Virus record (IMG/VR): IMGVR_UViG_3300005573_000057
Location: 32,001 to 96,000 of that record
DNA: 64,000 bases
Strand: one strand, 5' to 3'
Source of the DNA: a virus
Shown in pieces: positions 31,294-53,173 of the stretch; positions within the stretch are counted from its first letter, which is position 1, and each line of letters opens with the position of its first letter. The notes under the pieces are model-generated. The model was not told the origin of the DNA. It searched no databases and worked only from the letters and a program-made list of their open reading frames with translations. The position numbers and the translations under genes are program-made.

Positions 31294-32340
31294 CTACTCA
31301 GATTGACCATCCGATACCCCCGCCAGTGTATTCAACTTTTGAAGGTAGAATTGACTTACCTTAGACGTTGCTCGTTTTGCAAACTTTTTCCATTCAATGC
31401 CATTCTCGACAAGTGTTGTCATTTCTTCCTTGGCCGCATCTTTCATGCATCGACCGATGAACATTCCTGTATCTTTAATCGTTGGAGTCGTTCCCAATTC
31501 GACCGCCATATCATCAAACATCTGATTCAACCGATTCTCGGTCATGACATAATCCACAGCTTCATCAATCTTGGCAATTTCTTCGACGTTGACAGCCGCT
31601 AGAGTCTTGACCTTTGATGCGGAGTGCTTTTCTCCCTTGACCTTGAACACCAATCGACCACCATCATAATCATGAACCCAAACGATTCCTTCACCAATAC
31701 CGTCCTTGCCAAAGTAAGCAGCAACCGGGCAGTGTTCCTCAACCGCAGTGGTCAGTTCTGCTAATTTGTTTTGCGATAATTGAGGATTTGCAAAGTCAAC
31801 GTCAATTTCGTATGTTTCAAATTGATGCACAAAATAAATCTTGTGCAAATTAGCCCATTCAGTCAGTTTTGTGTCAGAAGCAATCTCACTCAACTCGTCC
31901 TGAGAAAATGTGCGTTCAGTTCCACGATATTCTTGCACGATAGAGAAAATGACAAACATTTTTTCACATTGATTGATGCCGACTCCTTTTTGAATGTTTC
32001 CACCGCACCACTCTCCGTAAATCGTAAGTCGATCAAACTCTCCACTAAGCATATTGGCCAAGTCTTTGAAAACTTGTTCTTTTTGAGTGGCGAACAAACA
32101 AAATCCAGCATTATCTGATGTAAGCGTCAGGAAACGTTCTCTGGATTGATAGGACAACTCAAGAGGCAGTCCATTTCCCGGATTAAACACATTGACAGCC
32201 GCGTTTGTTCCGTGCAACTTAACAGTCCCACGGAACTTCAATTCCGGCAAAGGAAGTACACTTCCTTCGCTGTTCCTTTTCACATTAACGATCACATCAC
32301 GAAACTGTTCAATACTTGGAAATTTCTTAAATTCATGCAT
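31294..32340 (-). CDS. rnlB: RNA ligase 2 family
   Basis: KFPSIEQF, TVKLHGTN (motif I), YGEWCG, GEGIVW, FKVKGEKHS. Confidence 0.88.
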   Translation of the reverse strand: MHEFKKFPSIEQFRDVIVNVKRNSEGSVLPLPELKFRGTVKLHGTNAAVNVFNPGNGLPLELSYQSRERFLTLTSDNAGFCLFATQKEQVFKDLANMLSGEFDRLTIYGEWCGGNIQKGVGINQCEKMFVIFSIVQEYRGTERTFSQDELSEIASDTKLTEWANLHKIYFVHQFETYEIDVDFANPQLSQNKLAELTTAVEEHCPVAAYFGKDGIGEGIVWVHDYDGGRLVFKVKGEKHSASKVKTLAAVNVEEIAKIDEAVDYVMTENRLNQMFDDMAVELGTTPTIKDTGMFIGRCMKDAAKEEMTTLVENGIEWKKFAKRATSKVSQFYLQKLNTLAGVSDGQSE

Positions 32341-32761
32341 ATTGCGTGTGGAACCTCGGCTTTTATGCCGAGTAGGTAGAGCGCAGATTGCTTCGCAATC
32401 TTTGCTTTGTGGCGTACCTAAATCACTCTCCATTTTTGCCACAGTTGAATAGGTGGAGGCTTTTCACCCCGCTGGGCCGTGAGGCTCTGCCCGTAAGGGC
32501 CTAGTGACGGAGACCTTACGGCCTCGCTCCCCTCGGGAATGTTTGTAACCGGCTCCACCCTTTCGGATGCGGCTAGAACCTTCGGGCCTTTACCTTTGCC
32601 CAGCATGATCCCAACCTTCCAGTGTCCGGGACTGAGGAAGCATCCCGGAGTGGGTCTCAACGACCTGTTACAAACGTAGCGGGTTTTCACCGCTTTCCCT
32701 GGTCAACCTAGCTATCGACCTTACGGTCTCAAGCTCCGGCCCGAAGGCCGGGGTAGTTGAC
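32337..32761 (-). mobile_element. Non-autonomous IscB-family mini-element (omegaRNA plus both ends, iscB deleted)
   Basis: 32500-32761 aligns with 52910-53173; 32337-32453 aligns with 51472-51583. Confidence 0.9.
32490..32761 (-). ncRNA. Stand-alone IscB omegaRNA (HEARO-like)
   Basis: Near-identical to the omegaRNA upstream of iscB, with stem-preserving differences (aaccgtaaggtt/gaccgtaaggtc; ccggctttcgggctgg/ccggccttcgggccgg). Confidence 0.85.
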
Positions 32762-32794
32762 GCATATCCGGCTCCAAAAATTAAAAACATTGTG

Positions 32795-33034
32795 TCACGA
32801 GTTCAAAACTGGCGTAAAATCAACATACATTTCCGTTCCCGGAATGAAATCTTCTGCAACATCTTGTTTGAAAATCCACATTTCAATTGTACCAGAAGGA
32901 ACCAACTTGAAGGACTTTTCGTTTTCTTCACTGGTTTCTGCAACTGTCCTTAGTTTGACTTCGGTTCCACAAGTTGTGAACGTGATGTTATCGACTACAA
33001 ATTTCGCTCGTACTTTCATGATTGAATCCTTCAC
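32795..33034 (-). CDS. Hypothetical protein
   Basis: VRAKF...EENEKSF...PSGTIEM...F.PG.E.YVDFTP phage motif. Confidence 0.7.
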   Translation of the reverse strand: MKDSIMKVRAKFVVDNITFTTCGTEVKLRTVAETSEENEKSFKLVPSGTIEMWIFKQDVAEDFIPGTEMYVDFTPVLNS

Positions 33035-34560
33035 GCTTCCAAGAATGGCCTACCGCGCAATTCACCGATATGACCGCTTAGTGTTTTGGTTCCTTTCTCA
33101 ACCACCGTTGTATCGTCAATCTTTTCGTACTCGGTATCTTTTTTCCGCAGATCAGGAGAAATGAGCCGTACACGATGACCCCACAGAGACTTGATTGCTT
33201 CCAATGTATACAACGCATCCAAAGAGTCAAGTTTACGGGTTTCTTCTTTGTTTGTAAAGTGCTCCAAGAACAAAGTTCGATCCCCTTCTACATCAACCCC
33301 AACCACCTGAATGTCAGGAACCCGATATGATAGACTATGTTGCCTTGAAAGTCTAATCTTGAGTTCGTCCAACATGCGCCCGTTACGCGGAATTTCTCGA
33401 ACTTCAATCAAAGATTCATCGTTATTCATCGAAGTTCCAAACAAACCAAAGTCTTGAGCAACTTCCAACGACAAATATTGAGCAATAAACGATTCGTCAT
33501 TGAAGTTCTGCATTGCATAATTTACTTCGGTCTGCCAGTGTTTTCCAGCTTCTTCTGCTTTCTTCTTAATGTCCATGAACATCTTGAACCCGAACCTGTA
33601 TGGGTTCAGTTGTGATGTGTGCTTGTAAGAATGTTGCGTCAGCACTCCCGAATGACTTGCGTAGAACTCTAGCATAGATCCATCACTAATCAAACCCTTA
33701 TCGTACAACCGATGCATGATGTAGTAATGCGTAAAGGATGCGTAGCCTTCATGCACGATCTGCATTTGACGTTGCGGAAGAAAATATTGACTGATTTTCC
33801 GAACAATGCGGATAATCTCACGTTGCCACGGTTCAAGATTTGGGGCACGCTTTTCAATGAAGTACAGAATGTTTTCTTCTGGTTCCATGTATCCAGGATC
33901 ACGACCACCAACCACTCCATCATTTGCTTTTGAATGATCCATCAATGTATGATGCATCAAGTCAAATTCAGCGACCTTGTCTGTAAGCTTTTTAGGCGAT
34001 CTTTTGCCCCTGCGCCGATACTTATCCACCCCATAGATTTGAATGGCATGGCAAGCGTCCAAGACCCGTTCAACAGTATCTATACCATGTTCGGCTTCGC
34101 ACTTGGTAATGAACTTCTTTGCAAAATCAATGTATGGGATGATGCTTGTCGCATCCGTGTTCTCACGAAAGTAAACGTTGTTTTTATAGACAGCAGAATG
34201 CCCAACACTTGCATGAGCCATCACAAGCGTTTGCATCAAAGCATTGTTGCTTTCCATCAAATAGGCAATGCAAGGGTCTGAATTGATCACCATTTCATAC
34301 GCTAGGCCCATCTTCCCATTTTCATAGTCTTGTTTCTGCACAATGGCGGATTGTCCAAACGACCAGTGTTTGTACATCATTGGCATTCCAGTCGTCACAT
34401 AAGCTTCAAGCATCTGATCGGAAGAAATGATTTCAAACTGTGGCTCATAGTAAGAAATTTCTAATTCTTTTGCTATGATTTCGATTTCATGCCAAATTTT
34501 ATCAAGCATGTCTGGGTTCCAATCTTCCCCCGGTTGAAAAAGCAATTTCGACTTGGCCAT
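33031..34560 (-). CDS. spoVR: SpoVR/YcgB family protein
   Basis: GMP..YKHWSFG, LAYEMVINSDPCIAYLME, HASVGH, WQREIIRIVRK.SQYF.PQ, EGYASFTHY. Confidence 0.93.
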   Translation of the reverse strand: MAKSKLLFQPGEDWNPDMLDKIWHEIEIIAKELEISYYEPQFEIISSDQMLEAYVTTGMPMMYKHWSFGQSAIVQKQDYENGKMGLAYEMVINSDPCIAYLMESNNALMQTLVMAHASVGHSAVYKNNVYFRENTDATSIIPYIDFAKKFITKCEAEHGIDTVERVLDACHAIQIYGVDKYRRRGKRSPKKLTDKVAEFDLMHHTLMDHSKANDGVVGGRDPGYMEPEENILYFIEKRAPNLEPWQREIIRIVRKISQYFLPQRQMQIVHEGYASFTHYYIMHRLYDKGLISDGSMLEFYASHSGVLTQHSYKHTSQLNPYRFGFKMFMDIKKKAEEAGKHWQTEVNYAMQNFNDESFIAQYLSLEVAQDFGLFGTSMNNDESLIEVREIPRNGRMLDELKIRLSRQHSLSYRVPDIQVVGVDVEGDRTLFLEHFTNKEETRKLDSLDALYTLEAIKSLWGHRVRLISPDLRKKDTEYEKIDDTTVVEKGTKTLSGHIGELRGRPFLEA

Positions 34561-35795
34561 TACTTGATCCTTTTTGTAAAGAACTTCCTGAACAATGGGT
34601 ATACATCAGCGACGCCTTGCACCATCCCATACGTAAAGTTCTTTGACTTGACAAACTTCTTATAAGTTTGAAGTAAATTCGACTCGGCTAATGAACTTGA
34701 GGAAAACAAACTTAGAGTAGAATCCCCCCAATCAGTTGCCAGATCAATCTCGACATAAAATGCGTAATTGATCAGATCGAGAATTTCGTTCATTGTCTTA
34801 GCTGATTTTCCATCGTCATAAGGCATGTTGTCCCCATCAGACGCTTGTGCAAGATAGACGTTGCTTTTGCCTTTCAGTTTTTTCGCATACTCAAGTGCAA
34901 TCTTGAGCGCAGGGGATACCAGTGTACCACCACTATGCGTAGAATTGAAGAACTCGTTTTGATCAACAACATAAGCCTTATCAGTGTGAGAAATGAATAC
35001 AAGATCGACATTATCGTAATTGCGACGAACAAAATGATACAAAAGCCAAAAAAATCGTTTCGCCACACTCTTTTCATCGTCACCCATAGACCCACTTACA
35101 TCCATGACCATGATGACCGTAGCATGGGTTGACGGTATGGTTTCGATCTTGGATGACCTATAGCGCAAATCCATATCTTCAAACAGCGGAACTTCTTCAA
35201 TGCGGGTCTGAATTTCTTTTCTTTCTTCTTCGGTCAAATTTTCATCAGCAAGTTCATCTTCAATTATACCACGCAGAACCAACTGGCGAGTGAATCCATT
35301 GATGTATGACCGGACGATATGCAGGCGCGACGGGGTTCCTTCTGTCTGAAACCCTGCATTTGTGCGTCTTGTTTCCTCAACTTTTGAAAGTTCCTGTCTA
35401 ACAAGATCAGGCAGTTCCATCCCGTCAAAGAACAAATCCAGAAATTCTTCGGCACTCAAATGCACACTGAATTCATCACCTTCACCAGCATCATCCCCAC
35501 CACTACCACCGCTTCGATCAATGTGAAGCACATCCCCAGGAACAAACTGATCATTTCCAGGGAGAACCAAATCCCACGATCCACTTCCGTCACGATGGAT
35601 GTTTGGTTCTCGCATCAGCTTGTCCCAGGGAACTTTTACGTCAACTCCTTTTTTCCCAATGTCCTGAATGTCCTGATCTTTGATAGCATCATTCACCCGC
35701 TGCTTCATGACTCCCCGAATGCGCCGCAAGTAACGCTCACGCGAACTAATGGTTCTATCCGGGGTAGCCCTACGTCTATCAATGATGATTGCCAT
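34560..35795 (-). CDS. yeaH: YeaH/YhbH (DUF444) vWA-like protein
   Basis: IIDRR, PGNDQF..GD, MDVSGSM, SGGTLVS, QASDGDN. Confidence 0.92.
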   Translation of the reverse strand: MAIIIDRRRATPDRTISSRERYLRRIRGVMKQRVNDAIKDQDIQDIGKKGVDVKVPWDKLMREPNIHRDGSGSWDLVLPGNDQFVPGDVLHIDRSGGSGGDDAGEGDEFSVHLSAEEFLDLFFDGMELPDLVRQELSKVEETRRTNAGFQTEGTPSRLHIVRSYINGFTRQLVLRGIIEDELADENLTEEERKEIQTRIEEVPLFEDMDLRYRSSKIETIPSTHATVIMVMDVSGSMGDDEKSVAKRFFWLLYHFVRRNYDNVDLVFISHTDKAYVVDQNEFFNSTHSGGTLVSPALKIALEYAKKLKGKSNVYLAQASDGDNMPYDDGKSAKTMNEILDLINYAFYVEIDLATDWGDSTLSLFSSSSLAESNLLQTYKKFVKSKNFTYGMVQGVADVYPLFRKFFTKRIK

Positions 35796-35808
35796 GACAA
35801 GGGTTCCT

Positions 35809-37728
35809 TTAATTACTATACTTGGCCCGCAGGAAGAACTCGACCAGAATACGAGTTTGGCGCGGAGTGTAGTTCAACTTTTGCATCTGTGCGACAAAAT
35901 CGTTGTGCTTCTTGGTTTCTTCTTCTGTGCGCTTCGGGGTAAATGCGATCACCGGCAGAATATCCGCTGTACTTGCCAGGACATTCTTTTCGATGACCAG
36001 ACGCATCTTTTCAAAACCGTTCCATGCTGGCATCTTGCCTTTGTTTGCACCCTTGTAGCGAACGATGAACATTGCTACATCATTACGGAAATCCTTCGGG
36101 TTACTGATTCCGGCAGGCTTTTCCATCTTTTCGAGTTCGGCGTTCAACGCAGCACGATCCAACATCAGACCAGTATTCGAGTCACGGTACTCCTGATCAC
36201 TCACCCATGCGTCTGCATAGTAGAAGTATCTTTCAAACATATTCTGGCACAAATCTTGGAAGCTATTCAAGAATGAGGCACGAATATCCTTTTCCAGAAA
36301 CTCCATGTAATTTTCCATCAGAGTGCCATCAAGGATGGTCAAAAGTTCCTGTTCCTTTTCTTTTCCAAGCTGTTCTTCACTGATACTGCGCTTGAGGACG
36401 TACATCAAATGAATCGGGTTCGCCGCAATTTCCTCAGTATCATAGTTGAAAGTCTTGGACAGAATCTTAAAAGCAAACCGAGTGCTGATTCCGTTCATCC
36501 CTTCCTTAACCCCAGCAGCATCCTTGTATTCCTGCAAGGGCTTTGCTGTTGGATCTTCTTGTTTCAGATTTTCACCGTTGTAGACGCGCATCTTCACATA
36601 CAAAGGCGAATTTTCTGGTTTGACCAACCGACTCATGACCGCAAATTGCGCCATCGTTTCCAATGTTCCTGGAGCGCAAGGCGCAGTCGCCAAGGCGCTA
36701 TTTGACAGGAGTTTCTTGTAAATCTTGACTTCTTCGTCAACCCGAGTTACATAAGGAACCGACACAAGATAGACCCGATCCAAGAACGCTTCATTGGTCT
36801 TGTTATTACGAAAAGCTTCCCATTCACTTTCGTTGCTATGAGCAATAATAATGCCGTGGAAGGGCATATTACCAATGGCCTTAGTACCTGTATACATATG
36901 CTCTTGTGTGGCCGTGAGCAACGGATGGAGCATCTTGATTGGCGCTTTGAACATTTCCACAAACTCAAGCACACCGTTGTTTGCCCGATTCAAGCCGCCA
37001 CTAAAGTTGTAAGCATAGGGATGGTTTTGAGAATACTTGCCAACCATACGAATATCCAGTTCCCCAACCAGCGTGGAAATATCTTGGTTGTTTTCGTCAC
37101 CAGGTTCGACCCGAGCGATGCAGATTTGGTGAAGCCGACTTGGATAGACCTTGCGAACTTTGAACTGCGACAGATCCCCCTTGAATTCCTTGATCTTTTC
37201 AATTGCCCACGGACTCGGAACATTCTTGAAAAGCATAGCAGGAAGGCCAAAAATTTTAGATGCATCAGGTTGATTAAAGAACAACCCAAATGGAGTTTCA
37301 AAGACTGGAGACCCATCTAGGATATAAACAGGTTCCTTTTCGGCCAATTCTTTGATTTTCTCGGCCAATGTGCTCTTACTAGAGCCAACAGGCCCCAACA
37401 AGTACAGGATTTGCTTTGCTTCTTCAAGCCCCTGTGATGCATGTCGAAAATAGGCGACAATTTGGTCAATTGTATCTTCCATCCCATAGAAATCAGAAGA
37501 AAAGGATGGATAGACCCGAATGATTCGGTTTTGAAAAATGCGCGAAAGGTGAGGATCGTTTTTGGTATCCAAAAGTGTCGGTTCACCGATTGCTTTAAGA
37601 ATTCGTTCTGCTGGGGAAGCATACAAAGACGGATCTGAAACACACCGTTCCATAAAATCCTCAAGGCCAATGACTTCATCGTCAAACTGAGTTGAAAGTG
37701 CTTGTGTGAATGTATCGAGTTTACTCAT
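35809..37728 (-). CDS. prkA: PrkA/YeaG AAA+ serine kinase family protein
   Basis: FYGME, LLGPVGSSKS, EPGDENNQDISTLVG, EFVEMFKAPIK.LHPLLTATQE, NEAFLDR. Confidence 0.95.
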   Translation of the reverse strand: MSKLDTFTQALSTQFDDEVIGLEDFMERCVSDPSLYASPAERILKAIGEPTLLDTKNDPHLSRIFQNRIIRVYPSFSSDFYGMEDTIDQIVAYFRHASQGLEEAKQILYLLGPVGSSKSTLAEKIKELAEKEPVYILDGSPVFETPFGLFFNQPDASKIFGLPAMLFKNVPSPWAIEKIKEFKGDLSQFKVRKVYPSRLHQICIARVEPGDENNQDISTLVGELDIRMVGKYSQNHPYAYNFSGGLNRANNGVLEFVEMFKAPIKMLHPLLTATQEHMYTGTKAIGNMPFHGIIIAHSNESEWEAFRNNKTNEAFLDRVYLVSVPYVTRVDEEVKIYKKLLSNSALATAPCAPGTLETMAQFAVMSRLVKPENSPLYVKMRVYNGENLKQEDPTAKPLQEYKDAAGVKEGMNGISTRFAFKILSKTFNYDTEEIAANPIHLMYVLKRSISEEQLGKEKEQELLTILDGTLMENYMEFLEKDIRASFLNSFQDLCQNMFERYFYYADAWVSDQEYRDSNTGLMLDRAALNAELEKMEKPAGISNPKDFRNDVAMFIVRYKGANKGKMPAWNGFEKMRLVIEKNVLASTADILPVIAFTPKRTEEETKKHNDFVAQMQKLNYTPRQTRILVEFFLRAKYSN

Positions 37729-37769
37729 TGTTTTGCTCCATTACTAAGTCGGGGTGTGAACAAGTTAGT

Positions 37770-38351
37770 CTAGTGTTTGACGCCAGCAGCGATCATTAGT
37801 GCATCCAAAACAACATCATGAACAGGGTTTTGTTTCATAATGTCGTCAACATCCATATATTGAGGATCAATATCGGTAACTCCTTTTGGGACACTGTACA
37901 ACAAATTAACGGCAGTCCGAGTATCCATATAACGCCAAAACGGGATAAAATTACTCCCAACATCCTTACTCAATGATGCAGAAACGACCTGTGAAAGATG
38001 CCCACGAGTCCAAACAAAAAAGTCTTCATTAGGCAGCAATCGAGAATAGATGTAATCTTGAATTTCTCCAAGCGCAGCTTTACAAGTTGTTGGCTGGGGA
38101 TATTTTTTGGATTCCCCCAAACTAACTTCTTGCACTTCTTTTGGAAGGGTTTTCCAAAACTCAACCGTAGCAGGATCAATTACACGGTCTCCGACTTGCT
38201 CCGAAGTATCAAACTTCACAAGTAATGTGTCTTCGACCAACTCACTGAACAACTTTGGGGTTTCAACGTCAAACTCGACAATTGCAGCACTCACAACGAC
38301 CGAGCGTTCGGATAGCCCCAAAGTTTTGACATTATAAGAAAACATTTTCAT
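37770..38351 (-). CDS. DexA-like 3'-5' exonuclease homolog with degenerate catalytic residues
   Basis: xTLG...VVVSAA, VKFD..EQ, T..FW, VWTRG, DTRT, NPVHD..LDA; the ExoI motif reads NVKT instead of DxET. Confidence 0.7.
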   Translation of the reverse strand: MKMFSYNVKTLGLSERSVVVSAAIVEFDVETPKLFSELVEDTLLVKFDTSEQVGDRVIDPATVEFWKTLPKEVQEVSLGESKKYPQPTTCKAALGEIQDYIYSRLLPNEDFFVWTRGHLSQVVSASLSKDVGSNFIPFWRYMDTRTAVNLLYSVPKGVTDIDPQYMDVDDIMKQNPVHDVVLDALMIAAGVKH

Positions 38352-38614
38352 TTTATGATACCTTGCGTTTCGAACAAATGTTCAACATACAACGATGCAC
38401 CCTTTTCGTCATTCATATTAAAAAACCGAACCGAATAGGACTCGTCCATTTTATTAGTTTCATCAAAAGCAATAATACAAATGCTGTTCATTTCTTTGAT
38501 CAAACTAACACTAACACGGAGATTTCCGCGTTTATACGGCCCCAAACTTTGAATAACAAACGCGATCTTTTTTGGGTTTTCGTGTTGCATGTAAACATCA
38601 ATGTTTGTTTTCAT
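38348..38614 (-). CDS. Hypothetical protein
   Basis: ORF overlapping the regA end. Confidence 0.6.
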   Translation of the reverse strand: MKTNIDVYMQHENPKKIAFVIQSLGPYKRGNLRVSVSLIKEMNSICIIAFDETNKMDESYSVRFFNMNDEKGASLYVEHLFETQGIIK

Positions 38615-39050: not shown

Positions 39051-39053
39051 GAT

Positions 39054-40836: not shown

Positions 40837-41443
40837 TTAACATGCCGCCCTCCATAAAGGAGGATAATTCCTACTGTTCTGCGCACGAATCGCTTCAAGC
40901 GTAGTCACTTCGACGAGTTCATCAGTTCAAAGACGATAGATGATCTAGGGCAGCATCAAGCGTCGGGAAGACTCGTTCGCAGCACTGGCGAACCATTTCG
41001 AAGTAGCGCTTCACCGAGGGGTTCTCGACCTGATCAACCAAGAAGATTTGTTTACCCAAGGCTTTTGCAAATCCGATTTCCAACGCCAGCGCATAGCCGC
41101 CCGGATTCGAAGCCTCCATGTTGGCCAAAACAATGTCGGAATGGCGAACCGCCTCTAAGTCCCAACGTGTGTATTCGGCGGGGTCTTGAATGTTGTGTGT
41201 GCTCGGGTCAAGCAGCTCAAACGATCCGCCGAATCTGGCGGCAACTTGAGATTGCCAGTTGGATTTGAACCCACCGGCTAGGTACATCTTTTTAAGGGGT
41301 GTGGGGAGTTTTTTTAACATTGGTGTCCTTCTTAACTGTTTTCATTGCTTTATTATACTCGGTCTATGATTCAAAAGCAACAACAGATTTATCTTTTGCC
41401 CTATCCTTCCTTACCCCAAACTGCGGGGTCTGTAGCTCAATTG
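40837..41443 (-). mobile_element. Degenerate IS605 (TnpB-family) shell carrying a cargo gene
   Basis: 41347-41440 aligns with the tnpB left end and promoter (ctttattatact.ggtctatg.ttcaaaagcaacaacagattt); 40837-40920 aligns with the right end / omegaRNA tail. Confidence 0.78.
40922..41320 (-). CDS. Nucleoside 2-deoxyribosyltransferase-like protein
   Basis: YLAGG...W, DP, WDLEAV..SDIV, NPGG...LEIGFA.ALGK. Confidence 0.78.
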   Translation of the reverse strand: MLKKLPTPLKKMYLAGGFKSNWQSQVAARFGGSFELLDPSTHNIQDPAEYTRWDLEAVRHSDIVLANMEASNPGGYALALEIGFAKALGKQIFLVDQVENPSVKRYFEMVRQCCERVFPTLDAALDHLSSLN

Positions 41444-41450
41444 GTCAATG

Positions 41451-44067: not shown

Positions 44068-44074
44068 ACCTATG

Positions 44075-45001: not shown

Positions 45002-45146
45002 CGGTTTGCGCGTGAAACCTCGGCATTTATACCGAGTAGGTATAAAGCAGAACGAGAAGCGTTCTATGCTTTGTGGCGTACCCAAATCACTCTCCATTTT
45101 TGCCACAGTTAAAAGGTGGGGGATTTCGCCCCGCTGGGGCGAGGCG
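45002..45146 (-). mobile_element. 3' part of an IscB-family mini-element (omegaRNA lost)
   Basis: Aligns with 32337-32487, including the mini-element-specific junction ccccgctggg. Confidence 0.85.
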
Positions 45147-45296: not shown

Positions 45297-45306
45297 GACA
45301 AATTCC

Positions 45307-45936: not shown

Positions 45937-46008
45937 GATTAACTCCTTATCAACATTTACAACTGCATTATAGACCATCCACCAAAGAAATCAAGAAGAA
46001 ATTTCTTG
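45937..46008 (-). promoter_or_regulatory. Cassette promoter/leader repeat copy 6
   Basis: Reverse complement: gaaatttcttcTTGATTtctttggtggatggtcTATAATgcagttgtaaatgttgataaggagttaatc. Confidence 0.82.
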
Positions 46009-46077
46009 ATTCCGGGAGACCCGAGCATTCCCAGAAATCCGAGAACACCCAAAAACGCGACCATTTCTGTAGACCTC
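45991..46077 (-). pseudogene. 3' remnant of a hexapeptide gene (EVYRNGRVFGCSRISGNARVSRNQEISS*)
   Basis: Hexads plus EISS*, directly after the stop of the outer-membrane protein gene. Confidence 0.8.
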
Positions 46078-46513
46078 AAGATCCAAACTTGAATACAAGT
46101 TGCAAACCAAGAACCCCAGAAGTGCCTTTGACAGTTGGAGGAATAACCATCAAATTAAAACCATAATTTGAGTGACGATACGCCACGAGTAAACCACCAA
46201 TAACCGGAGTTTCATATCCGGTAGCTGGGCCACCAAACGCACCCAATGCAAAGTCGCCAAGATGAATAGGTGTATAAGAAGCAACAAAATAGACAGTCTG
46301 TTGATAATAGCTGTTCTTGTACTCTCCGCCAGAAATTCCCCAATTTCCAACATCATACTCTAATCCAACACCAGCGTTGACCTGATCGAAACCACGGTCA
46401 GGAAAGTGTCGGCTCACCGTTGTCACGGCACCATATAAACCATCAGCGTGTGCCATCGGCATCGCAACAAGTACGCTCAACATCATAAACAAACTCAAGA
46501 ACATCTTTTTCAT
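46076..46513 (-). CDS. Secreted outer-membrane beta-barrel protein (possibly PagP-like)
   Basis: Signal peptide ending AHA; SRH, N.GVGLEY, YKNSY, TGY; amphipathic C-terminal strand LQLVFKF. Confidence 0.65.
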   Translation of the reverse strand: MKKMFLSLFMMLSVLVAMPMAHADGLYGAVTTVSRHFPDRGFDQVNAGVGLEYDVGNWGISGGEYKNSYYQQTVYFVASYTPIHLGDFALGAFGGPATGYETPVIGGLLVAYRHSNYGFNLMVIPPTVKGTSGVLGLQLVFKFGS

Positions 46514-46592
46514 GATAAATTCTCCAAATGTTTGAAAAACGAGATAAATTCACGAACCTCAATTAACATCATACCACACAGACGCCACCTTG

Positions 46593-49133
46593 TCAATCAT
46601 CAAAAAATGCTTCCAGACTCGACCGTTCTTCAACATCCAGATCGGCTACCGAACACATCTTAGACAATGGCGACAAGAACAGCTTATCAAACATTGTATC
46701 ATAGTCAAACATCTTTTCCATTCCCAATTCTGGTGGAATTTCTCCAACAAATCCAAACACATTTTCCCTTGTTCTGTTCGGAGTTTTCAAATAAAAATAC
46801 TTCATTTTAGATCCGTTGTAGATCATTGGATACTGAACACTATCGAACTTTCCTTTCTCCATCGCATCATTGTAGAGCAACGCTGCCCTCACATAGATTG
46901 GAGTTTTGGCAACGTATACAACACCGTTGCGATTTGACGACTTATACTTTTCAAGCCCATTGACGCCAACCGTAAACGAAATTTTGTTGATCGGAGACTC
47001 GTAAAATGCTTTCTTCACATCCTTGACATATTGGATGATCTTGGCCTGATCACCGTCCAAGATGTAATTCAGAGATTCTTTCAAACGGTTTTGAATAAGT
47101 TTTGGTGTCGTTGAACGTACAATTTCCAAGCCAACAACTTTAAGAACCGGCTCGTGATAGTAAACACCCTCATTGTATAAAACGCGCATGACATAGCGTT
47201 TCTTCGCAACATACAAGATGTGATCACCGATTGCTTCGAGTTTGAAACTAATGAAATTTTCTTTGAATCCGACCTTTTCAAGTTGGTTGTTAACAATTCG
47301 TTGAATAGCAGGTTGGAGCTTATCAATTGCATATCGTTCAATCATTCTGACGATTTTTGCTTTGTCTGTTCGATCTACAATTGGATAAATAAACTTTTCA
47401 ACAATGGATTGAAGGTCAATATACATGCTGTCTGTATCACCAGCAATCACGTTGGCTTGAACATTCCCCAAATATCGACCCAAAGACATTTCACATGATC
47501 GAATGATGTATTGACCGCCAGCAGTGATTGCTTCTGCCAAGTCAATGTCGAAGAATCTGAAAAACTTGTTGCCAAGCGCCCCATATGCAGAATTGAGCAA
47601 AAGCTTAAAGGCGTTCTGCATCGAGTTCAAACGAGATATTTCAATTGCAACATTGGTTGCATCTTCGCCACTATACTCTCCAGATTCAAGACGCTTCTTG
47701 AGTGCAAGCATTTCCCCCTTAACCTTCTTGCGACGGATAAAGTAGTATCGAAACAACCGTGGAATGAATCCTTCTTTCGTTAAATCAAACAGTACCCCGT
47801 TCGCAGCAATGCAAGTCCCTTCTGGGCGTTCCACAGCTTCGACACGATCCAAAAGCGTCTGGGGATTTACATTTTCCATCCTATACAGCTTTGTATCGGG
47901 GCTAATGTTCCATGTGATAGCTGTGCTCGGATACAGGGAAGTCGCGTCCACACTGCACGACCATCCATAATTTTTTGGAATTGGTTCAATAACATAGGCA
48001 CCATCATAACTTTGCGACCGAGCTTCTTTTGGTGGATCAAAGACAACATTTCTTCGTTCAAAGTCGTTGTAAATGATGCTTTCCCAAGTTTTGACTGGCG
48101 AGTATGCATCTTCAAAGTTCTCTTTTGCTTCATACCCTACAGAACAATGTTGATCAATGTATCCAAGCTTGTTGTCCAACACATCCACGACCCTAACGTC
48201 ATCAATGTTATAGAGGACAAACCGATTCCAATGTTTCGTATAAAGTTCGACAAAGCCACCTGATAAATCCTCAAAGGTGTTCTTTTGAACTTCCACGTTT
48301 TCATGTTCAGCAATAAATCCAAGCGTCCATGATTCTCGGCTTCCCGATGCATACTTTTTATACAGCGCCAACAAGTCAAGTTGCGAAACTCCGGGAATCC
48401 GAATAACATCAATTTCTTTGTTGTTGTAACCCTTTTCAACATCTTGGTAAACAGTACCCCAAGGAGAAAGGCTATTGGCTCTTTCTTCACCCACTACTCG
48501 CGCAGAACGAGCATAGATGTACGGCATATCAAACCCGTCTGAGTTCCACCCACTTACAACATCCGGGTATGAGGATGCCCATTCTGCCAAAAACTTGTTC
48601 AGCAAGTCAGCTTCGCTAGAACACTGAATGTAGTACCATTTCAACGGTAACTCACCATCAAAAGGTTTGACTCCAAACGTCTTCCCAATTTTTGTTGTTC
48701 GATTGTACAAAGAAATAAGGAGAATGGCCTGAACCGGATTAGATGGAACAGGAATACCCATACCGGGAATAATTTCGGTTTCAATGTCAACGATTACAAC
48801 ATTCAACAGACTCACATCATAGGATGTTGGCAAAGTTGCCATAAACTGTTGAATATAGTTCTGGTTCCCGTAAATTTCTTGGCCATGAACACCATCAAAT
48901 TGCTTTACATAAGACTTCGCATCGTTAATACAGTCAAACTCATATGGAACAACATTGTCACCACCTAAGCTTTTCCATTCGCTTTCACGATCTGTTTTTT
49001 TAAACAGCTTTGGCTTAAACTTAACACGCTCAAGGGTTCTTTGATGCGTGTAAGTATCAATCCCTCGTACCAACAGCGTGTTGCCATACGGGGCAACATG
49101 TGTATACTGGAATGTCGATTTAGTGTAGTCCAT
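46593..49133 (-). CDS. gp43: Family B DNA polymerase
   Basis: DIET, GWNSDGFD, YNIDD, DATSLYPS, KLLLNSAYG, GDTDS, KKRY. Confidence 0.97.
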   Translation of the reverse strand: MDYTKSTFQYTHVAPYGNTLLVRGIDTYTHQRTLERVKFKPKLFKKTDRESEWKSLGGDNVVPYEFDCINDAKSYVKQFDGVHGQEIYGNQNYIQQFMATLPTSYDVSLLNVVIVDIETEIIPGMGIPVPSNPVQAILLISLYNRTTKIGKTFGVKPFDGELPLKWYYIQCSSEADLLNKFLAEWASSYPDVVSGWNSDGFDMPYIYARSARVVGEERANSLSPWGTVYQDVEKGYNNKEIDVIRIPGVSQLDLLALYKKYASGSRESWTLGFIAEHENVEVQKNTFEDLSGGFVELYTKHWNRFVLYNIDDVRVVDVLDNKLGYIDQHCSVGYEAKENFEDAYSPVKTWESIIYNDFERRNVVFDPPKEARSQSYDGAYVIEPIPKNYGWSCSVDATSLYPSTAITWNISPDTKLYRMENVNPQTLLDRVEAVERPEGTCIAANGVLFDLTKEGFIPRLFRYYFIRRKKVKGEMLALKKRLESGEYSGEDATNVAIEISRLNSMQNAFKLLLNSAYGALGNKFFRFFDIDLAEAITAGGQYIIRSCEMSLGRYLGNVQANVIAGDTDSMYIDLQSIVEKFIYPIVDRTDKAKIVRMIERYAIDKLQPAIQRIVNNQLEKVGFKENFISFKLEAIGDHILYVAKKRYVMRVLYNEGVYYHEPVLKVVGLEIVRSTTPKLIQNRLKESLNYILDGDQAKIIQYVKDVKKAFYESPINKISFTVGVNGLEKYKSSNRNGVVYVAKTPIYVRAALLYNDAMEKGKFDSVQYPMIYNGSKMKYFYLKTPNRTRENVFGFVGEIPPELGMEKMFDYDTMFDKLFLSPLSKMCSVADLDVEERSSLEAFFDD

Positions 49134-49189
49134 GCAAAATTCTCAAAAAGATCAGTGTACTCTACACCACGATGAAAAACAAGATTACA

Positions 49190-49462
49190 TCACGTAGTAA
49201 ATTCTGTAGGGTCTCCGGCAGTTATAATAGCTCCGCATCCTGTAACAGATCCTACACAAGCAACCTCTTTTCCTTCCACAATTTTTGTGGTTGCTGGTGT
49301 TGCGACGATTGGTGTAATACCATGTCCCTTTATCGGACATATATGTAAATCACCAATCCTTGCAATCAACTTACCACCCGAGTATGAATGCTGAGTAGAC
49401 ACAGATAGTATATAACCACCATGACTACTCGGATCACCAAGTCTCGCTACTTGATCTGCCAC
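49190..49462 (-). CDS. PAAR spike-tip protein (gp5.4-like)
   Basis: VARLGD.SSHGG, IARIGD..CP..GHG, VACVGS.TGCGA.I. Confidence 0.9.
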   Translation of the reverse strand: MADQVARLGDPSSHGGYILSVSTQHSYSGGKLIARIGDLHICPIKGHGITPIVATPATTKIVEGKEVACVGSVTGCGAIITAGDPTEFTT

Positions 49463-49464
49463 GA

Positions 49465-49866
49465 TTAGAACCGAATGAAGTATTCTTTAGAGAACGATCC
49501 CCATTTGTCAGCACGCGGCCCAATCAGTTCGCCACGGTCTTCTAGGGGATAATACAGAGCGATGCAATCTTGATCAAGGGCGCGGGCCAGTTCATTGCAC
49601 AGTCCAGTGGGGTTATTTGAACGCATCTTCACAACCAGAGTTGGCTCTGTATCGGACGTTTGAGTTCTGAATTGTGCGCTGCCCTCCGCAAATTTATTGC
49701 ACAAATTTCGTGCCACCGACTCATTGGCTCGAACTTCATCTGGGGTGTTTGCACGATCATTGATATACAAACCAACGTTCAACTCGATCAGTTTTGTGTC
49801 ATCCGATTCAATGATAATCTGTTTGACGGCATTGACAAGATCTTGGCTAATTTCTGACAATTGCAT
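49465..49866 (-). CDS. Hypothetical protein, possible SAM-lyase-like fold
   Basis: TEPTLVV and LARALDQDCIALY recall the T3 SAMase TEEKTV / EQDCVLVY motifs. Confidence 0.45.
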   Translation of the reverse strand: MQLSEISQDLVNAVKQIIIESDDTKLIELNVGLYINDRANTPDEVRANESVARNLCNKFAEGSAQFRTQTSDTEPTLVVKMRSNNPTGLCNELARALDQDCIALYYPLEDRGELIGPRADKWGSFSKEYFIRF

Positions 49867-49988
49867 GGTGTTTCCTTTGTAAGTATTCAGTAGTTAGTGT
49901 AGCAGAAGTTGTAAACCTGATGGTGAAAAATGTCTGTGAATTGGATTTCGTGTGCTCCTAGTTGTTGGTATCGCGTTGTTCCGATAAC

Positions 49989-50046
49989 TGAACTATAGCA
50001 GAAAAATTTCCGATATGCTCACTTGTTAACAGACTTTTACATCTTT
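49989..50046 (-). repeat. Dispersed promoter-associated repeat, copy 2
   Basis: See 44010-44067. Confidence 0.75.
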
Positions 50047-50091
50047 CGCATCCTTCCCCGCCCCGAAAGGGGGGGTCTGTCTCTCAACTGA

Positions 50092-50568
50092 TCAAATCTG
50101 AGGGTAAACCAAGGAAAGATGCTCAAGAACAGCAGACCAATTTGGATAAAATTGTGATCCAAAATGAATGATTTTTCCAGGAAAATTGGAACAGTTCGCC
50201 TTGTGAATCCGATCATCGACAAGAAAATCTCGGTATGATCCAAGAATTCCCTTGTCTTGAGTCAGGATGATCTTTTTTTGAAGATCCGGCAAATACTCCT
50301 TAATCCAATCCACCTTTTCTGCATAGGAGTGCGGAACACTTGGCGGCGGTTTTGAAGCAACCCAAACATCAAACCCCATTTGTTGTATTTTTGCCACGGA
50401 AGCGATTGCATCCGGCATTGGCGGCATTTCCCTAAAAAAATTCGGATGATCCATGAACCATTCATCCGTGAAATCATCGTTACCGAGCTTGAATCCAAGA
50501 TTAACAGCATGCGACTCGAAATCAACCAGTACACCGTCCATATCAATAAAAATTTTTCGTTGTTTCAT
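50092..50568 (-). CDS. 5'(3')-deoxyribonucleotidase (HAD)
   Basis: DMDGVLVDF, FF..MPP, EK..WI, LVDDR. Confidence 0.9.
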   Translation of the reverse strand: MKQRKIFIDMDGVLVDFESHAVNLGFKLGNDDFTDEWFMDHPNFFREMPPMPDAIASVAKIQQMGFDVWVASKPPPSVPHSYAEKVDWIKEYLPDLQKKIILTQDKGILGSYRDFLVDDRIHKANCSNFPGKIIHFGSQFYPNWSAVLEHLSLVYPQI

Positions 50569-50594
50569 ATCAAACTCCTTACACACATTCTACA

Positions 50595-50825
50595 TCAATC
50601 AAGAAACGAAGTCAAGGCATTCGACGATTTAGGCAAGTAGCCAAGTGATTGAAAGTCGATTTCCAGGCGATCACGTAGGGGCATTGACATAAGTGACTGA
50701 ATAGTTTCAATGTCGAGTTCTTCTTCCTCGATCATTTCTGTCAAAAGTTCCAGATGCGTCTTTTTTTCATTCAAAACACGCATTTCGATATAAGATGCAA
50801 ATTCCGCTGCACTAGAGAACACCAT
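50595..50825 (-). CDS. gp33: Late transcription coactivator
   Basis: F...IE..V......LE......EEELDIE...L.S.PL.DRLE....LGYL pattern near rnh. Confidence 0.78.
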   Translation of the reverse strand: MVFSSAAEFASYIEMRVLNEKKTHLELLTEMIEEEELDIETIQSLMSMPLRDRLEIDFQSLGYLPKSSNALTSFLD

Positions 50826-50826
50826 G

Positions 50827-51471
50827 TCATTTCACTCCAGGTTGTTTAACGACTTTTGGCCGACCAGATACGGCCTTGAAAATTCCATCAATGATACGCC
50901 CAACTTGGTGTCTGCCGTTTGGTTCTACACGAACAACCTTGGTTGGATCTGTAGAATGTGGTTCGTAGAAAACATCTTGGGATGCAGAAAGAGTAGCAAG
51001 ATCATCAATGGTAGCAACTGGTGCCACGACTTCGGGAGTTGTAGGATTCAAAATCAGATCATCCCACCCATAAATCTTTGCCAACTCTTTATAGGGAATG
51101 TTAGGGTACAAAAGATCAAGCTTTTGATCCTTTACAGCAATCAAAATTTCACACTCGGGCTTCGTCAAGCCGGTCAAGAGTTCAATGAAAATAGACTCGC
51201 GCTGCACTGCGCGAACATCTGCGCGACAAAACACATAAAACCTGCGCAGTTCGTTGTTCAGATTCACAGCAGTCATTGCGTAAGGAGCCGGATCAAACTT
51301 GTAATTCTCTGGTGCCCCTTCTGGAAGTAGAAACTTTTGACCAGAACGAATTGCATGATTCAGAAGCAGCTTGAGCGCAGAAGATCCAGCAACATCATGA
51401 ACACGATCCGGGTTTTCATTGAGCCACACAATCAGTTCATAAATGCGTGTCGGAGGCGTATTTTGATTCAT
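50827..51471 (-). CDS. Conserved T4-like hypothetical protein
   Basis: FLLPEG.P..K, L..ELRRFYVF, RES.FI.LL.GL...E..IL.AVKDQKL; its start ATGAA is the IscB insertion site. Confidence 0.75.
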   Translation of the reverse strand: MNQNTPPTRIYELIVWLNENPDRVHDVAGSSALKLLLNHAIRSGQKFLLPEGAPENYKFDPAPYAMTAVNLNNELRRFYVFCRADVRAVQRESIFIELLTGLTKPECEILIAVKDQKLDLLYPNIPYKELAKIYGWDDLILNPTTPEVVAPVATIDDLATLSASQDVFYEPHSTDPTKVVRVEPNGRHQVGRIIDGIFKAVSGRPKVVKQPGVK

Positions 51472-52885
51472 CATTTTCGCGTGAAACCTCGGCATTATTG
51501 CCGAGTAGGTAGAGCGCAGAACGCTTCGCGTTCGTTGCTTTGTGGCGTACCTGTTCACTCTCCTTTTTTGCCACAGTTGAATAACCATAACCATCCGCAC
51601 GTTGTACCAAAGTACAGTGCTTGTAGGATATGCCTTGAACGACACCCGTTGCGGTTTGTATATTGAAGTATCCATTTGCACGAACCACTAAGCGCCCAGA
51701 ATGGATTCCAGATTTCTTACCAGTAGGAACACTGGCCTTAACCATATCACCCGTCTGGAAACCTTTGATACTCTTTTTCCTAGTTAGGTATCCACGCGGA
51801 AATCCGAATGCATTCAACTGTGTGCGCTGATAGCGTCCTCGACCTGTACACTTAATTGCCAGTGTCGGTCTTTGCCAGCCCGTAACGGAACTAACTCGAC
51901 CTACGCATACCGCATCAAGCGCGTGTGTTTTCGGAATACCGAGTTGCATACGATTGAATTTCGTCAAACCGCCTGAACCTGTTGTGACCGGAACGTTAAC
52001 AGCTTTGAGCGCATTGAACAACGCCCAACGGGTTGAATTAACCGCCGATGCGTCTTTAAGAGGTCGTTTTGCTTGAGCCAAAATACGATCAAGTCGTTTG
52101 GTATCGTTCGCCAAGAATACGCGAACATCCTGCGCACCTTTTTTCTGGTTGCATGATTGGCAAGCCAAGGCCAGATTCGAGACCCGATTGCTTCCGCCTT
52201 TAGATCGAGGATGGATGTGCTCAATCTGTAATGGCACATCTTTTGCACCGCAGTACGCGCAAACCCTGTTCCACTTGTTGAGCAGATATTCGCGCACTTC
52301 ATAACCGGCTAATGTGCCTTGTTGATACTCAACACCAGAAATTTCCACATTCTGCATTTTTTGCATATCAAACCGAACCAGTTCCTGAGCAATACCAGCA
52401 ACCGGCACCACACGTTGAAAACGATTGACCCATGCAACGGTTGTATCAACCCGGTGTTGTAGAGAAGGAGCTAACCAACCTTTAGGTTTTGTCCGATTGT
52501 CGAAACGGGCTGGCCTATACCGCAACTTGGAACGACGAAAACTTCGATGTTGCCTCCGTGCCGTTAAAGCCTCGCTAATCTGACGCCCGCGATGCAACAA
52601 TTCAAAAAGATTAAGCACATGGACACCAACACTAATTTCACCACTTTCCGCATCAATTTTCTCTGATTCTCTGACCACTGCAATACCTGTAAACTTACTA
52701 CCCGGATCAATTTTTACCTTGATCGGTTGTAATACACAACTGGAAACTTCACGATCAACAATGCGTATCGAAAACGGGATCAGCCGATGAACACGCGCAC
52801 GACCAGACGCGAGCAGTTTTTTTGCTCGTTTCTCGCTGCACGGCATCAGCGGTTTTCCTCGTTTGTCGATTACAAATACTGCCAT
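51437..52885 (-). CDS. iscB: RNA-guided endonuclease IscB
   Basis: PLMP domain, RuvC-I IDPGSK, Arg-rich bridge helix, RuvC-II ELVRFD, HNH CAYC..IEHI.PRSKGGSN..NL..AC..CN, RuvC-III HALDA; all catalytic residues intact. Confidence 0.96.
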   Translation of the reverse strand: MAVFVIDKRGKPLMPCSEKRAKKLLASGRARVHRLIPFSIRIVDREVSSCVLQPIKVKIDPGSKFTGIAVVRESEKIDAESGEISVGVHVLNLFELLHRGRQISEALTARRQHRSFRRSKLRYRPARFDNRTKPKGWLAPSLQHRVDTTVAWVNRFQRVVPVAGIAQELVRFDMQKMQNVEISGVEYQQGTLAGYEVREYLLNKWNRVCAYCGAKDVPLQIEHIHPRSKGGSNRVSNLALACQSCNQKKGAQDVRVFLANDTKRLDRILAQAKRPLKDASAVNSTRWALFNALKAVNVPVTTGSGGLTKFNRMQLGIPKTHALDAVCVGRVSSVTGWQRPTLAIKCTGRGRYQRTQLNAFGFPRGYLTRKKSIKGFQTGDMVKASVPTGKKSGIHSGRLVVRANGYFNIQTATGVVQGISYKHCTLVQRADGYGYSTVAKKESEQVRHKATNAKRSALYLLGNNAEVSRENDESKYASDTHL

Positions 52886-53173
52886 TTACTTCCTTAAATG
52901 CGCTTACGCGCCTAGTGACGGAGACCTTACGGCCTCGCTCCCCTCGGGAATGTCTGTAACCGGCTCCTGCCTTGCGGCAGCGACTAGAACCTTCGGGCCT
53001 TTACCTTTGCCCAGCATGATCCTAATCTTCCAGTGTCCGGGACTGAGGAAGCATCCCGGAGTGGGTCTCAACGACCTGTTACAAACGTAGCGGATTGGAT
53101 ACCGCTTTCCCTGGTCAACCAAGCTATCAACCTTACGGTTTCTAGCTCCAGCCCGAAAGCCGGGGTAATTGAC
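51472..53173 (-). mobile_element. IS200/IS605-superfamily IscB element (no tnpA)
   Basis: Follows TTCAT and ends TTGAC on the + strand; subterminal hairpins ctcggcattattgccgag and ccagcccgaaagccgg; removing it restores a TAATG rnh/next-gene junction. Confidence 0.9.
52890..53173 (-). ncRNA. IscB omegaRNA (HEARO-like)
   Basis: Structured non-coding region with GNRA/UUCG hairpins upstream of iscB; second copy at 32490-32761. Confidence 0.88.

What the first reader, a model, noticed from the sequence alone, without database searches (positions are those of the whole stretch)
32330..53173. Phage-borne multi-guide OMEGA network: intact IscB and TnpB plus stand-alone omegaRNAs, with no transposase in view
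The window holds nine IS200/IS605 derivatives of three families. A catalytically intact IscB has its own omegaRNA plus a second full omegaRNA 20 kb away that shows stem-preserving substitutions and a different flank-derived guide (aatttttggagccggatatgc versus gatcggattaacgattttta). TnpB likewise has a trans omegaRNA. Each guide plus motif spells the element-free allele of a phage locus (rnh junction, rnl2 start, phoH-gp45 spacer, kinase promoter). In a UvsX-encoding lytic phage these could act as RNA-programmed homing endonucleases that spread in mixed infections without TnpA, analogous to T4 seg/mob genes. OMEGA systems are known; this multiplexed phage-homing arrangement is my inference.
Basis: partly seen in the sequence, partly recalled or inferred. 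Interest (0 to 1): 0.82.

Follow-up and report, generated by a model that had tools for sequence, protein, structure and literature searches.

The report
Guide-RNA transposon relics in hot-spring phage
A T4-like hot-spring phage carries several transposase-less IS200/IS605 elements (one IscB, several TnpB, plus gene-less copies that keep only the guide RNA). The IscB element is present in about half of an otherwise identical natural phage population, which makes RNA-guided "homing" in phages testable, but the element type and the idea are already known.

Summary
Rfam finds two full HEARO/omegaRNAs in the window. One sits directly upstream of an intact IscB. The other is a 425-bp gene-less derivative in front of rnl2. 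An intact TnpB element (outside the stated coordinates) has a 256-bp gene-less twin that keeps its promoter and omegaRNA. The 140-kb contig (about 79% complete) has no Y1 TnpA.

New evidence:
- The IscB element (51472-53173) is a presence/absence polymorphism of about 55:45 in an isogenic background. This is seen in a Logan unitig and in an independent JGI contig.
- The empty allele matches the guide fully. It then reads a 10-nt ribosome-binding spacer starting AGGAA instead of the ATGAA motif, so it may not be cleavable.
- The closest phage-borne relatives are in Ralstonia phages. There a 99%-identical IscB element sits at different loci in three genera. In sister phages the guide plus ATGA(N) equals the empty site, exactly in one of three pairs.

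These are ordinary non-autonomous IS605-type elements plus PATE-like derivatives. Reaching new sites needs a transposase in trans. Nuclease-driven homing among phage genomes is plausible but unproven. Trans use of such guide RNAs, plasmid gene drive and phage homing are already published as ideas or results. This scan has also noted phage IscB and stand-alone guide RNAs on other DNA.

The parts
51472..53173 (-). IscB element B (1,702 bp): omegaRNA at the RE side, the iscB gene, and two LE hairpins
   Evidence: The boundaries are fixed independently by a metagenome contig that skips exactly 51472-53173 and by JGI contig L190.
52890..53173 (-). Cognate omegaRNA (HEARO) of IscB
   Evidence: Rfam RF02033, 98.3 bits, full model. 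Conserved structure.
51437..52885 (-). iscB ORF, 482 aa. It reads through the LE and ends 35 nt (stop codon included) inside the next gene.
   Evidence: Pfam RRXRR 225.7 bits plus HNH. PDB IscB matches with DPG, E, HNH and TH..D motifs present.
53174..53194 (-). Guide of omegaRNA B, equal to the last codons of rnh. The first base of the element completes the rnh stop codon.
51467..51471 (-). ATGAA motif abutting the LE (reverse complement TTCAT, the TAM reported for GstIscB). It is also the start codon region of the DUF6433 gene.
   Evidence: Meers preprint
32337..32761 (-). Element A: a gene-less derivative with a full omegaRNA (32478-32761) plus about 140 nt of iscB 3' end and LE hairpins
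   Evidence: Rfam 107.5 bits; alignments
32762..32782 (-). Guide of omegaRNA A (intergenic DNA upstream of rnl2, including its ribosome-binding site)
32332..32336 (-). ATGAA motif abutting element A. The rnl2 start codon (32338-32340) lies in the element's last 8 nt, which copy the left flank.
45002..45141 (-). Remnant D: LE end of an IscB-family element without omegaRNA, followed by ATGAA (44997-45001)
54883..56242 (-). TnpB family-1 element T1 (1,360 bp) between phoH and gp45. TTGAT lies at 56243-56247 and the guide runs from 54882 downward.
30253..30508 (-). Gene-less TnpB mini-element: LE with a TTGCTT-N17-TATAAT promoter fused to the last ~150 nt (omegaRNA scaffold) of the RE. TTGAT lies at 30509-30513 and the guide runs from 30252 downward.
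41337..41449 (-). Solo LE of TnpB family 1 (behind TTGAC at 41450-41454). It now serves as the upstream region of a nucleoside deoxyribosyltransferase-like gene.
63805..64000 (-). RE and 3' end of a TnpB family-2 element, cut by the window end

Best explanation
The region holds non-autonomous IS200/IS605-family elements living in a T4-like phage of a hot-spring community. They are one IscB element, TnpB elements of two families, and internally deleted, protein-less (PATE-like) derivatives that retain a complete omegaRNA module.

Shown:
- The architecture is canonical. For IscB, the omegaRNA starts at the RE boundary, so its 5' guide is the adjoining flank, and the LE abuts ATGA(N) (reverse complement NTCAT). 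For TnpB, TTGAT abuts the LE and the guide is the DNA after the RE.
- The nucleases are catalytically intact.
- The IscB element is currently polymorphic in an isogenic phage population.

Inferred:
- Insertion at new loci is done by a Y1 TnpA supplied in trans, most likely by the host, which appears to be a beta- or gamma-proteobacterium.
- Once the element is in a phage genome, each nuclease-omegaRNA complex cuts element-free copies of its own site in the replicating or co-infecting phage DNA pool. Recombinational repair by UvsX, gp32 and related proteins then copies the element in. This is gene-drive or homing-like maintenance.
- The gene-less copies would borrow the nuclease in trans.
- Because ATGA(N) coincides with start codons, IscB-type insertions land between a gene's ribosome-binding site and its ATG. 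The surviving copies have rebuilt these translation signals at their far end.

The confidence of 0.6 is for the whole chain. The identity and anatomy alone I hold at about 0.95, and the homing step at about 0.45.
For: Identity and anatomy.

No TnpA was found on the contig. None was found in four complete Ralstonia phage genomes that carry the same element families.

Polymorphism:
- A unitig in run X1 joins 51471 to 53174 with 10 other letters between, at depth 7.25. The element interior has depth 9.1 and the flanks 14.6-19.9.
- An independent JGI contig, L190, carries the same empty allele. Its flanks are 100% identical over 127 nt on one side and about 1.84 kb on the other.
- An ENA assembly carries the occupied allele at 99.9% identity.

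Relatives:
- IscB is 62% and TnpB 73% identical to genes of Ralstonia phages.
- The Ralstonia IscB element is 98.7-99.7% identical at different loci in three genera.
- Adzire versus Bakoly is an exact insertion in which guide plus ATGAG equals the empty site. Alix versus Gervaise and Heva versus Cimandef agree apart from small indels.

All four IscB-family ends in this genome abut ATGAA.

The recombination genes are present.

Published mechanism: Meers et al. preprint and the plasmid gene drive of Mears et al..
Against: - The only empty allele seen for site B reads AGGAA, not ATGAA, directly after a perfect guide match. GstIscB is reported to be highly sensitive to TAM mutations, so this allele may escape cutting.
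- About 45% of the population lacks this IscB copy, so the stand-alone omegaRNAs may have no partner there.
- Remnant D, the solo LE and the LE-less third copy show decay rather than maintenance.
- The A-versus-B substitutions give only weak evidence of selection on structure.
- The contig is about 79% complete, so a TnpA or a second IscB could lie in the missing part.
Confidence: 0.6

Rival explanations
1. Passive passengers. The elements were dropped into the phage by host TnpA. The nucleases serve at most to restore the element after TnpA excision (restorative homing), with no phage-to-phage drive. The gene-less omegaRNA copies, D and the solo LE are decaying relics tolerated because they sit in intergenic DNA and supply promoters or translation signals.
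For: - The copies sit at unrelated loci and need transposition.
- HEARO-like sequence is present at about 300-380x depth against about 15x for the phage in the same metagenomes, which suggests a large reservoir outside the phage.
- Decayed copies exist.
- The empty allele has a non-cognate motif next to the guide match.
- Half the population lacks this IscB copy.
Against: - Both nucleases keep all catalytic residues.
- The gene-less copies keep complete, foldable scaffolds, some with compensatory changes.
- The mini TnpB element fuses a promoter directly to the scaffold.
- The insertion reached about 55% in an isogenic background and is found in three independent assemblies.
Confidence: 0.27
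2. Phage-versus-phage weapon. The guides are used to destroy the genomes of related competitors that lack the insertions (exclusion), with little or no copying of the element.
For: The guides match conserved gene boundaries of close relatives. Killing of competitors by homing nucleases is described for phages (review).
Against: T4-like phages recombine avidly and this phage encodes UvsX, gp32 and gp41, so conversion is the expected outcome of a cut between near-identical genomes. No relative with a cleavable site was found for this phage.
Confidence: 0.08
3. Domesticated regulatory parts. The LE promoters, the rebuilt ribosome-binding sites and start codons, and perhaps guide-directed binding serve phage gene expression, and nuclease activity is irrelevant.
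For: - The LE carries a TTGCTT-N17-TATAAT promoter that now precedes the kinase-like gene and the deoxyribosyltransferase-like gene.
- Removing the mini-element in silico rebuilds a TTGAAA-N17-TACAAT promoter.
- The far ends of A and of the third copy recreate a start codon and a GGAG ribosome-binding site.
Against: The catalytic residues are intact, unlike the TldR-type inactivated TnpB regulators. The guides point at the elements' own insertion sites, not at promoters elsewhere, and no off-target with 2 or fewer mismatches exists for the window's guides.
Confidence: 0.05

Closest known systems
IscB/omegaRNA (HEARO) elements of the IS200/IS605 superfamily, e.g. GstIscB of Geobacillus stearothermophilus (Meers et al. 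2023) and OgeuIscB
   Same: RRXRR/PLMP, split RuvC and HNH protein. HEARO RNA directly upstream at the RE boundary with a 5' flank-derived guide. The motif at the LE is ATGAA, the reverse complement of TTCAT, which is the TAM given for GstIscB. Usually no tnpA nearby.
   Different: It resides in a T4-like phage. The ORF runs through the LE. It inserts at start codons of phage genes. It is seen as a live polymorphism in a natural phage population. Cleavage is untested.
ISDra2-type TnpB elements (IS605)
   Same: TnpB with D/E/D and a zinc finger (E 5.9e-54 to the ISDra2 TnpB structures). TTGAT lies next to the LE. The omegaRNA overlaps the 3' end of the gene and its guide lies after the RE.
   Different: No tnpA. 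The LE carries a consensus-like promoter. The closest relatives are phage-borne (Ralstonia phages Cimandef and Dimitile, 73%).
PATEs (palindrome-associated transposable elements) that encode omegaRNAs used in trans
   Same: Element A and the 256-bp TnpB mini-element keep both ends and a complete omegaRNA but no protein. Meers et al. already propose that a nuclease encoded elsewhere acts on such RNAs in trans.
   Different: Here they sit in a phage genome next to essential replication genes. One copy lacks the LE and one remnant lacks the RNA.
TnpB gene drive in multicopy plasmids (Mears et al. 2025) and 'non-restorative transposon homing' (review PMC13565253)
   Same: Both involve cutting element-free copies of a multicopy or co-resident replicon so that element-bearing copies take over, independently of TnpA.
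   Different: That has been shown for plasmids and only proposed for phages. Here there is population-genetic context but no functional test.
T4 seg/mob free-standing homing endonucleases
   Same: They sit in intergenic positions in T4-like replication modules, and the expected outcome is marker exclusion or co-conversion in mixed infection.
   Different: Those enzymes recognise DNA by protein alone and are unrelated in sequence. This is an analogy only.

Membership tests
IscB OMEGA element (IS200/IS605) | Protein with an RRXRR/PLMP N-terminus, split RuvC and an inserted HNH, with catalytic residues present | tested here: met
   Pfam RRXRR 225.7 bits and HNH 52.8 bits. The alignment to TbaIscB shows the DPG, E, EH..N..N and TH..D motifs.
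IscB OMEGA element (IS200/IS605) | HEARO/omegaRNA directly upstream on the same strand | tested here: met
   RF02033 full-length hit at 52932-53173, 46 nt before the start codon.
IscB OMEGA element (IS200/IS605) | The guide equals the flank at the RE boundary, and a target-adjacent motif lies at the opposite (LE) end | tested here: met
   The boundary is fixed by empty alleles. ATGAA is found at all four ends in this genome, and ATGA(N) in three Ralstonia phage pairs.
IscB OMEGA element (IS200/IS605) | Subterminal hairpins at the transposon end | tested here: met
   Two LE hairpins are conserved in A, B and D, with compensatory changes in the first.
IscB OMEGA element (IS200/IS605) | RNA-guided, motif-dependent DNA cleavage | not testable with these tools
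   Needs a biochemical or plasmid-interference assay.
Autonomous IS200/IS605 | Y1 (HUH) TnpA transposase | tested here: not met
   No PF01797 match in the 140-kb contig or in 4 complete related-element phage genomes. The elements are non-autonomous.
TnpB OMEGA element (IS605) | TnpB with RuvC D/E/D and a zinc ribbon, a 3' omegaRNA, and a 5' TAM next to the LE | tested here: met
   Pfam OrfB_IS605, TNB and HTH domains. PDB TnpB match at E 5.9e-54. Conserved RE fold with 11 covarying pairs. TTGAT, TTGAT and TTGAC lie at the three LEs. No Rfam family matched the TnpB RNA.
PATE-like gene-less derivative | Both transposon ends retained and no protein gene | tested here: met
   Met for element A (32337-32761) and the mini TnpB element (30253-30508). 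Not met for remnant D, the solo LE or the LE-less third omegaRNA copy.
Homing / gene-drive behaviour in phage | An element-free allele coexists and is a cleavable target, with super-Mendelian inheritance | tested here: inconclusive
   An empty allele coexists at about 45%, but it carries AGGAA instead of ATGAA beside the guide match. Inheritance is not testable here.

The most novel reading that the evidence does not exclude
IscB and TnpB elements act as TnpA-independent, RNA-programmed homing drives in lytic phage populations, and gene-less omegaRNA satellites parasitise the nucleases in trans. On this reading the ~1:1 polymorphism caught here is a drive stalled against a motif-escape (resistant) empty allele. 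The rebuilt start codon and ribosome-binding site at the element ends record selection to offset the cost of landing on ATGA start sites.
Probability: 0.3. Interest if true: 0.75.

Novelty: new member of a known kind. Interest (0 to 1): 0.55.

Why it matters
Whether OMEGA nucleases work in phages as RNA-guided counterparts of the T4 seg/mob homing enzymes has been proposed but, in the papers I could search, not shown. This locus gives a natural population with both alleles in an identical background. The related Ralstonia phages (Adzire versus Bakoly in particular) give cultured, co-circulating pairs in which the guide plus motif equals the sister phage's empty site. The question can therefore be settled with standard mixed-infection crosses. 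The data also show that insertion at ATGA start sites carries a cost that the elements appear to repair.

Tried and rejected
- Megablast of the polymerase gene against GenBank phages found no match. The best protein identity is about 38%, to cyanomyophages, so no close cultured relative exists.
- An IMG/VR search with rnh gave only relatives of 38% identity or less, so empty sites could not be compared by synteny.
- Pattern scans for an empty rnl2 site and an empty rnh site found nothing in JGI metagenome contigs or viral contigs.
- Exact-protein look-ups for Rnl2, PhoH, gp45 and the kinase-like protein found only occupied alleles or nothing. No empty allele was seen for element A, T1 or the mini-element.
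- No RNA holder was listed among the sequencing runs, so expression is untested.
- Run X3 has no cover over the IscB and TnpB interiors, but its cover is patchy throughout, so this shows nothing.
- Three other joints (45120 to 53111, 55007 to 41350, and 54966 to 55347) are best read as cross-mapping of copies that lie outside the laid stretch, not as rearrangements.
It is not accepted as IS-derived.
- The simple sigma-70 scan found no promoter just upstream of omegaRNA A. It would have to be made by read-through, as for B.


Full report
**What the window is.** The window is part of a 140,449-bp linear IMG/VR contig, about 79% complete by CheckV. It comes from hot-spring metagenomes. The region is a T4-type replication module on the minus strand. 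It encodes family-B DNA polymerase, the clamp loader, the gp45 clamp, RNase H, PhoH, gp32, a gp41-like helicase, a RecA/UvsX-like protein and an RNA ligase, plus a PrkA/DUF444/SpoVR trio. No close cultured or IMG/VR relative was found.

**Check of the observation.** Rfam finds two full-length HEARO RNAs above gathering score, at 52932-53173 and 32521-32761, both on the minus strand.
- The first lies 46 nt upstream of a 482-aa IscB with RRXRR and HNH domains. Its RuvC and HNH motifs align to solved IscB structures.
- The second has no protein gene behind it.
- The two RNAs are 90-93% identical.
- An intact TnpB (54926-56143) lies between phoH and gp45.
- A 256-bp gene-less twin (30253-30508) joins that element's left end, including a TTGCTT-N17-TATAAT promoter, directly to the last ~150 nt of its right end. 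This RNA region keeps its fold, with compensatory changes.
- The whole contig holds 1 IscB, 3 HEARO RNAs, 4 full TnpB genes of two families and no Y1 TnpA.

So the description is right. Three points need adjusting. TnpB and its twin lie outside the stated coordinates. I can secure seven, not nine, IS-derived units in the window. The A-versus-B 'stem-preserving substitutions' are few. Covariation is strong only when the third copy and the Ralstonia phage copies are added (25 of 73 pairs).

**Anatomy.** Meers et al. state that the IscB omegaRNA is bounded by the transposon RE and that the TAM (TTCAT for GstIscB) lies 5' of the LE. Read on the iscB strand, an element therefore looks like this: flank (the guide), then RE and omegaRNA, then iscB, then LE, then ATGAA.
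- This is what I find. Elements A, B, remnant D and the third copy outside the window all end directly before ATGAA.
- The LE carries two hairpins, and the first covaries between copies.
- The iscB ORF runs through the LE.
- The TnpB family-1 units start right after TTGAT, TTGAT and TTGAC. They end with a shared terminal sequence, after which the copies diverge, and that divergent DNA is the guide.
- Deleting the mini-element in silico rebuilds a TTGAAA-N17-TACAAT promoter in front of the kinase-like gene. An earlier first-stage note had suggested this.

**Empty alleles: the main new evidence.** Contigs of three hot-spring runs were laid on 36450-56449.
- In run X1 one contig joins 51471 to 53174. 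It skips exactly the 1,702 bp of the IscB element and has 10 other letters in between, at depth 7.25.
- The element interior has depth 9.1 and the shared flanks 14.6-19.9. That gives roughly a 55:45 mix.
- An independent JGI assembly, contig L190, carries the same empty allele. Its flanks are 100% identical to the window over 127 nt and about 1.84 kb.
- An ENA assembly carries the occupied allele at 99.9% identity.

The element is therefore a recent gain or loss in an isogenic phage population. The empty allele reads: end of rnh, then a 10-nt spacer AGGAAAGATT that looks like the ribosome-binding site of the next gene, then ATGAA. This 10-mer does not occur in the element, so a deletion of the element cannot have created it. 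The empty allele is probably ancestral.

The guide matches the empty allele perfectly. The motif position, however, reads AGGAA rather than ATGAA.

**Relatives.** The nearest phage-borne IscB (62%) and TnpB (73%) are both in Ralstonia phages from Réunion and Mauritius.
- There a ~1.74-kb IscB element is 98.7-99.7% identical in three genera at different loci.
- None of four complete genomes has a TnpA.
- Adzire versus Bakoly is an exact insertion, with guide plus ATGAG equal to the Bakoly sequence.
- Alix versus Gervaise agrees except for a 3-nt indel.
- Heva versus Cimandef has the guide followed by ATGAT in the empty allele, but 25 bp are missing from the occupied one.

In both imprecise cases (Heva, and site B here) the missing segment starts after one TAM-like pentamer and ends with another: ATCAT...ATCAT for Heva, and TTCAT...TTCCT for site B. 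My inference, which is untested, is insertion at the second motif followed by TnpA-type joining from the first.

Identical elements at unrelated loci, and in unrelated phages, can only arise by transposition, so a transposase in trans is needed. HEARO-like sequence at about 300-380x depth in the same metagenomes, against about 15x for the phage, points to a large reservoir elsewhere, perhaps in the host. The closest bacterial IscBs are in Pseudomonadota, at 75% identity.

Maintenance and spread at an occupied site by RNA-guided cutting of empty copies fits several observations. The anatomy fits, the nucleases are intact, the phage has its own recombination genes, both alleles coexist, and the Ralstonia pairs match. 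It remains unproven. For site B the empty allele may be motif-resistant.

Trans use of the gene-less omegaRNAs is plausible. A is 91-93% identical to the cognate scaffold, and the mini TnpB unit is a promoter-scaffold-guide cassette. Against it, about 45% of genomes lack this IscB copy, no empty allele of A, T1 or the mini-element was found, and no RNA data exist.

**A side result.** Because ATGA(N) overlaps start codons, these insertions separate a gene from its ribosome-binding site.
- In A, the last 8 nt of the element copy the left flank and recreate the in-frame rnl2 start codon.
- In the third copy, the far end is 12 of 13 identical to its own left flank. It recreates a GGAG site 6 nt before the ATG, at the price of losing the LE.

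These look like products of recombination with, or selection toward, the empty-site sequence.

**Comparison and novelty.** These are members of known kinds: IscB and TnpB IS605-type elements and PATE-like derivatives. Each part of the interpretation already has a precedent.
- Trans-acting PATE omegaRNAs are proposed in Meers et al..
- TnpA-independent gene drive is shown for plasmids.
- Homing into co-infecting phages is listed as a theoretical case in a 2026 review.
- IscB and TnpB genes are not rare in phage records: 23 records hold most of IscB, and 623 records hold a TnpB match.
- This scan has noted a phage IscB at a gene start and stand-alone phage guide RNAs on other DNA.

What is new is the density of units in one lytic-type phage, the captured natural polymorphism, and a cultured phage system in which the idea can be tested.

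Noticed in passing
L090 (Adzire), L089 (Heva), L186 (Alix), with empty sites in L187 (Bakoly), L092 (Cimandef), L188 (Gervaise): A ~1.74-kb IscB-omegaRNA element is 98.7-99.7% identical at three different loci in three genera of Ralstonia phages from the same islands and hosts. Sister phages carry the matching empty sites. It is annotated only as 'HNH endonuclease' or 'hypothetical', and I found no paper naming it as IscB.
   Followed up: partly
window 51472-53173 versus L190:120-145: The occupied allele lacks a 10-nt ribosome-binding spacer that the empty allele has. Heva lacks 25 bp relative to Cimandef in the same way. In both cases the missing piece is bounded by TAM-like pentamers. The mechanism is unexplained.
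   Followed up: partly
window 52458-53124 (runs X1 and X3): HEARO-like pieces reach depth 300-380, while the phage sits at about 15 (X1) or under 4 (X3). Another abundant genome in these hot springs carries many copies of a closely related omegaRNA.
   Followed up: no
window 54061-54123: Eight of the 11 differences between the window and the ENA assembly (L189, 12.9 kb) cluster in 63 bp at the gp45/rnh junction. This looks like a small recombination patch.
   Followed up: no
window 33031-37728: A PrkA / DUF444 (YeaH-like) / SpoVR (YcgB-like) gene trio, a bacterial stress-response operon, sits inside a T4-like replication module.
   Followed up: no
window 11235-13244, 24600-26100, 44471-45978: There are families of paralogous hexapeptide (18-nt period) beta-solenoid genes at several loci on both strands, with YdcK-type repeats. 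Remnant D sits between two of them.
   Followed up: no
window 43991-44067 and 49970-50046: A 77-nt repeat (82% identical) lies directly upstream of two gene starts and ends in a short hairpin. It may be a shared regulatory region and is unrelated to the IS ends.
   Followed up: partly
genome 103700-103830 (outside the window; L002): The second TnpB family-1 copy has a different left flank that looks like the 3' part of a tRNA. It shares a ~70-nt stretch with the region upstream of the family-2 TnpB at the window end.
   Followed up: no
window 28625-29110: A 27-nt periodic repeat array lies inside an ORF with a faint collagen-like Pfam hit in the ENA annotation.
   Followed up: no
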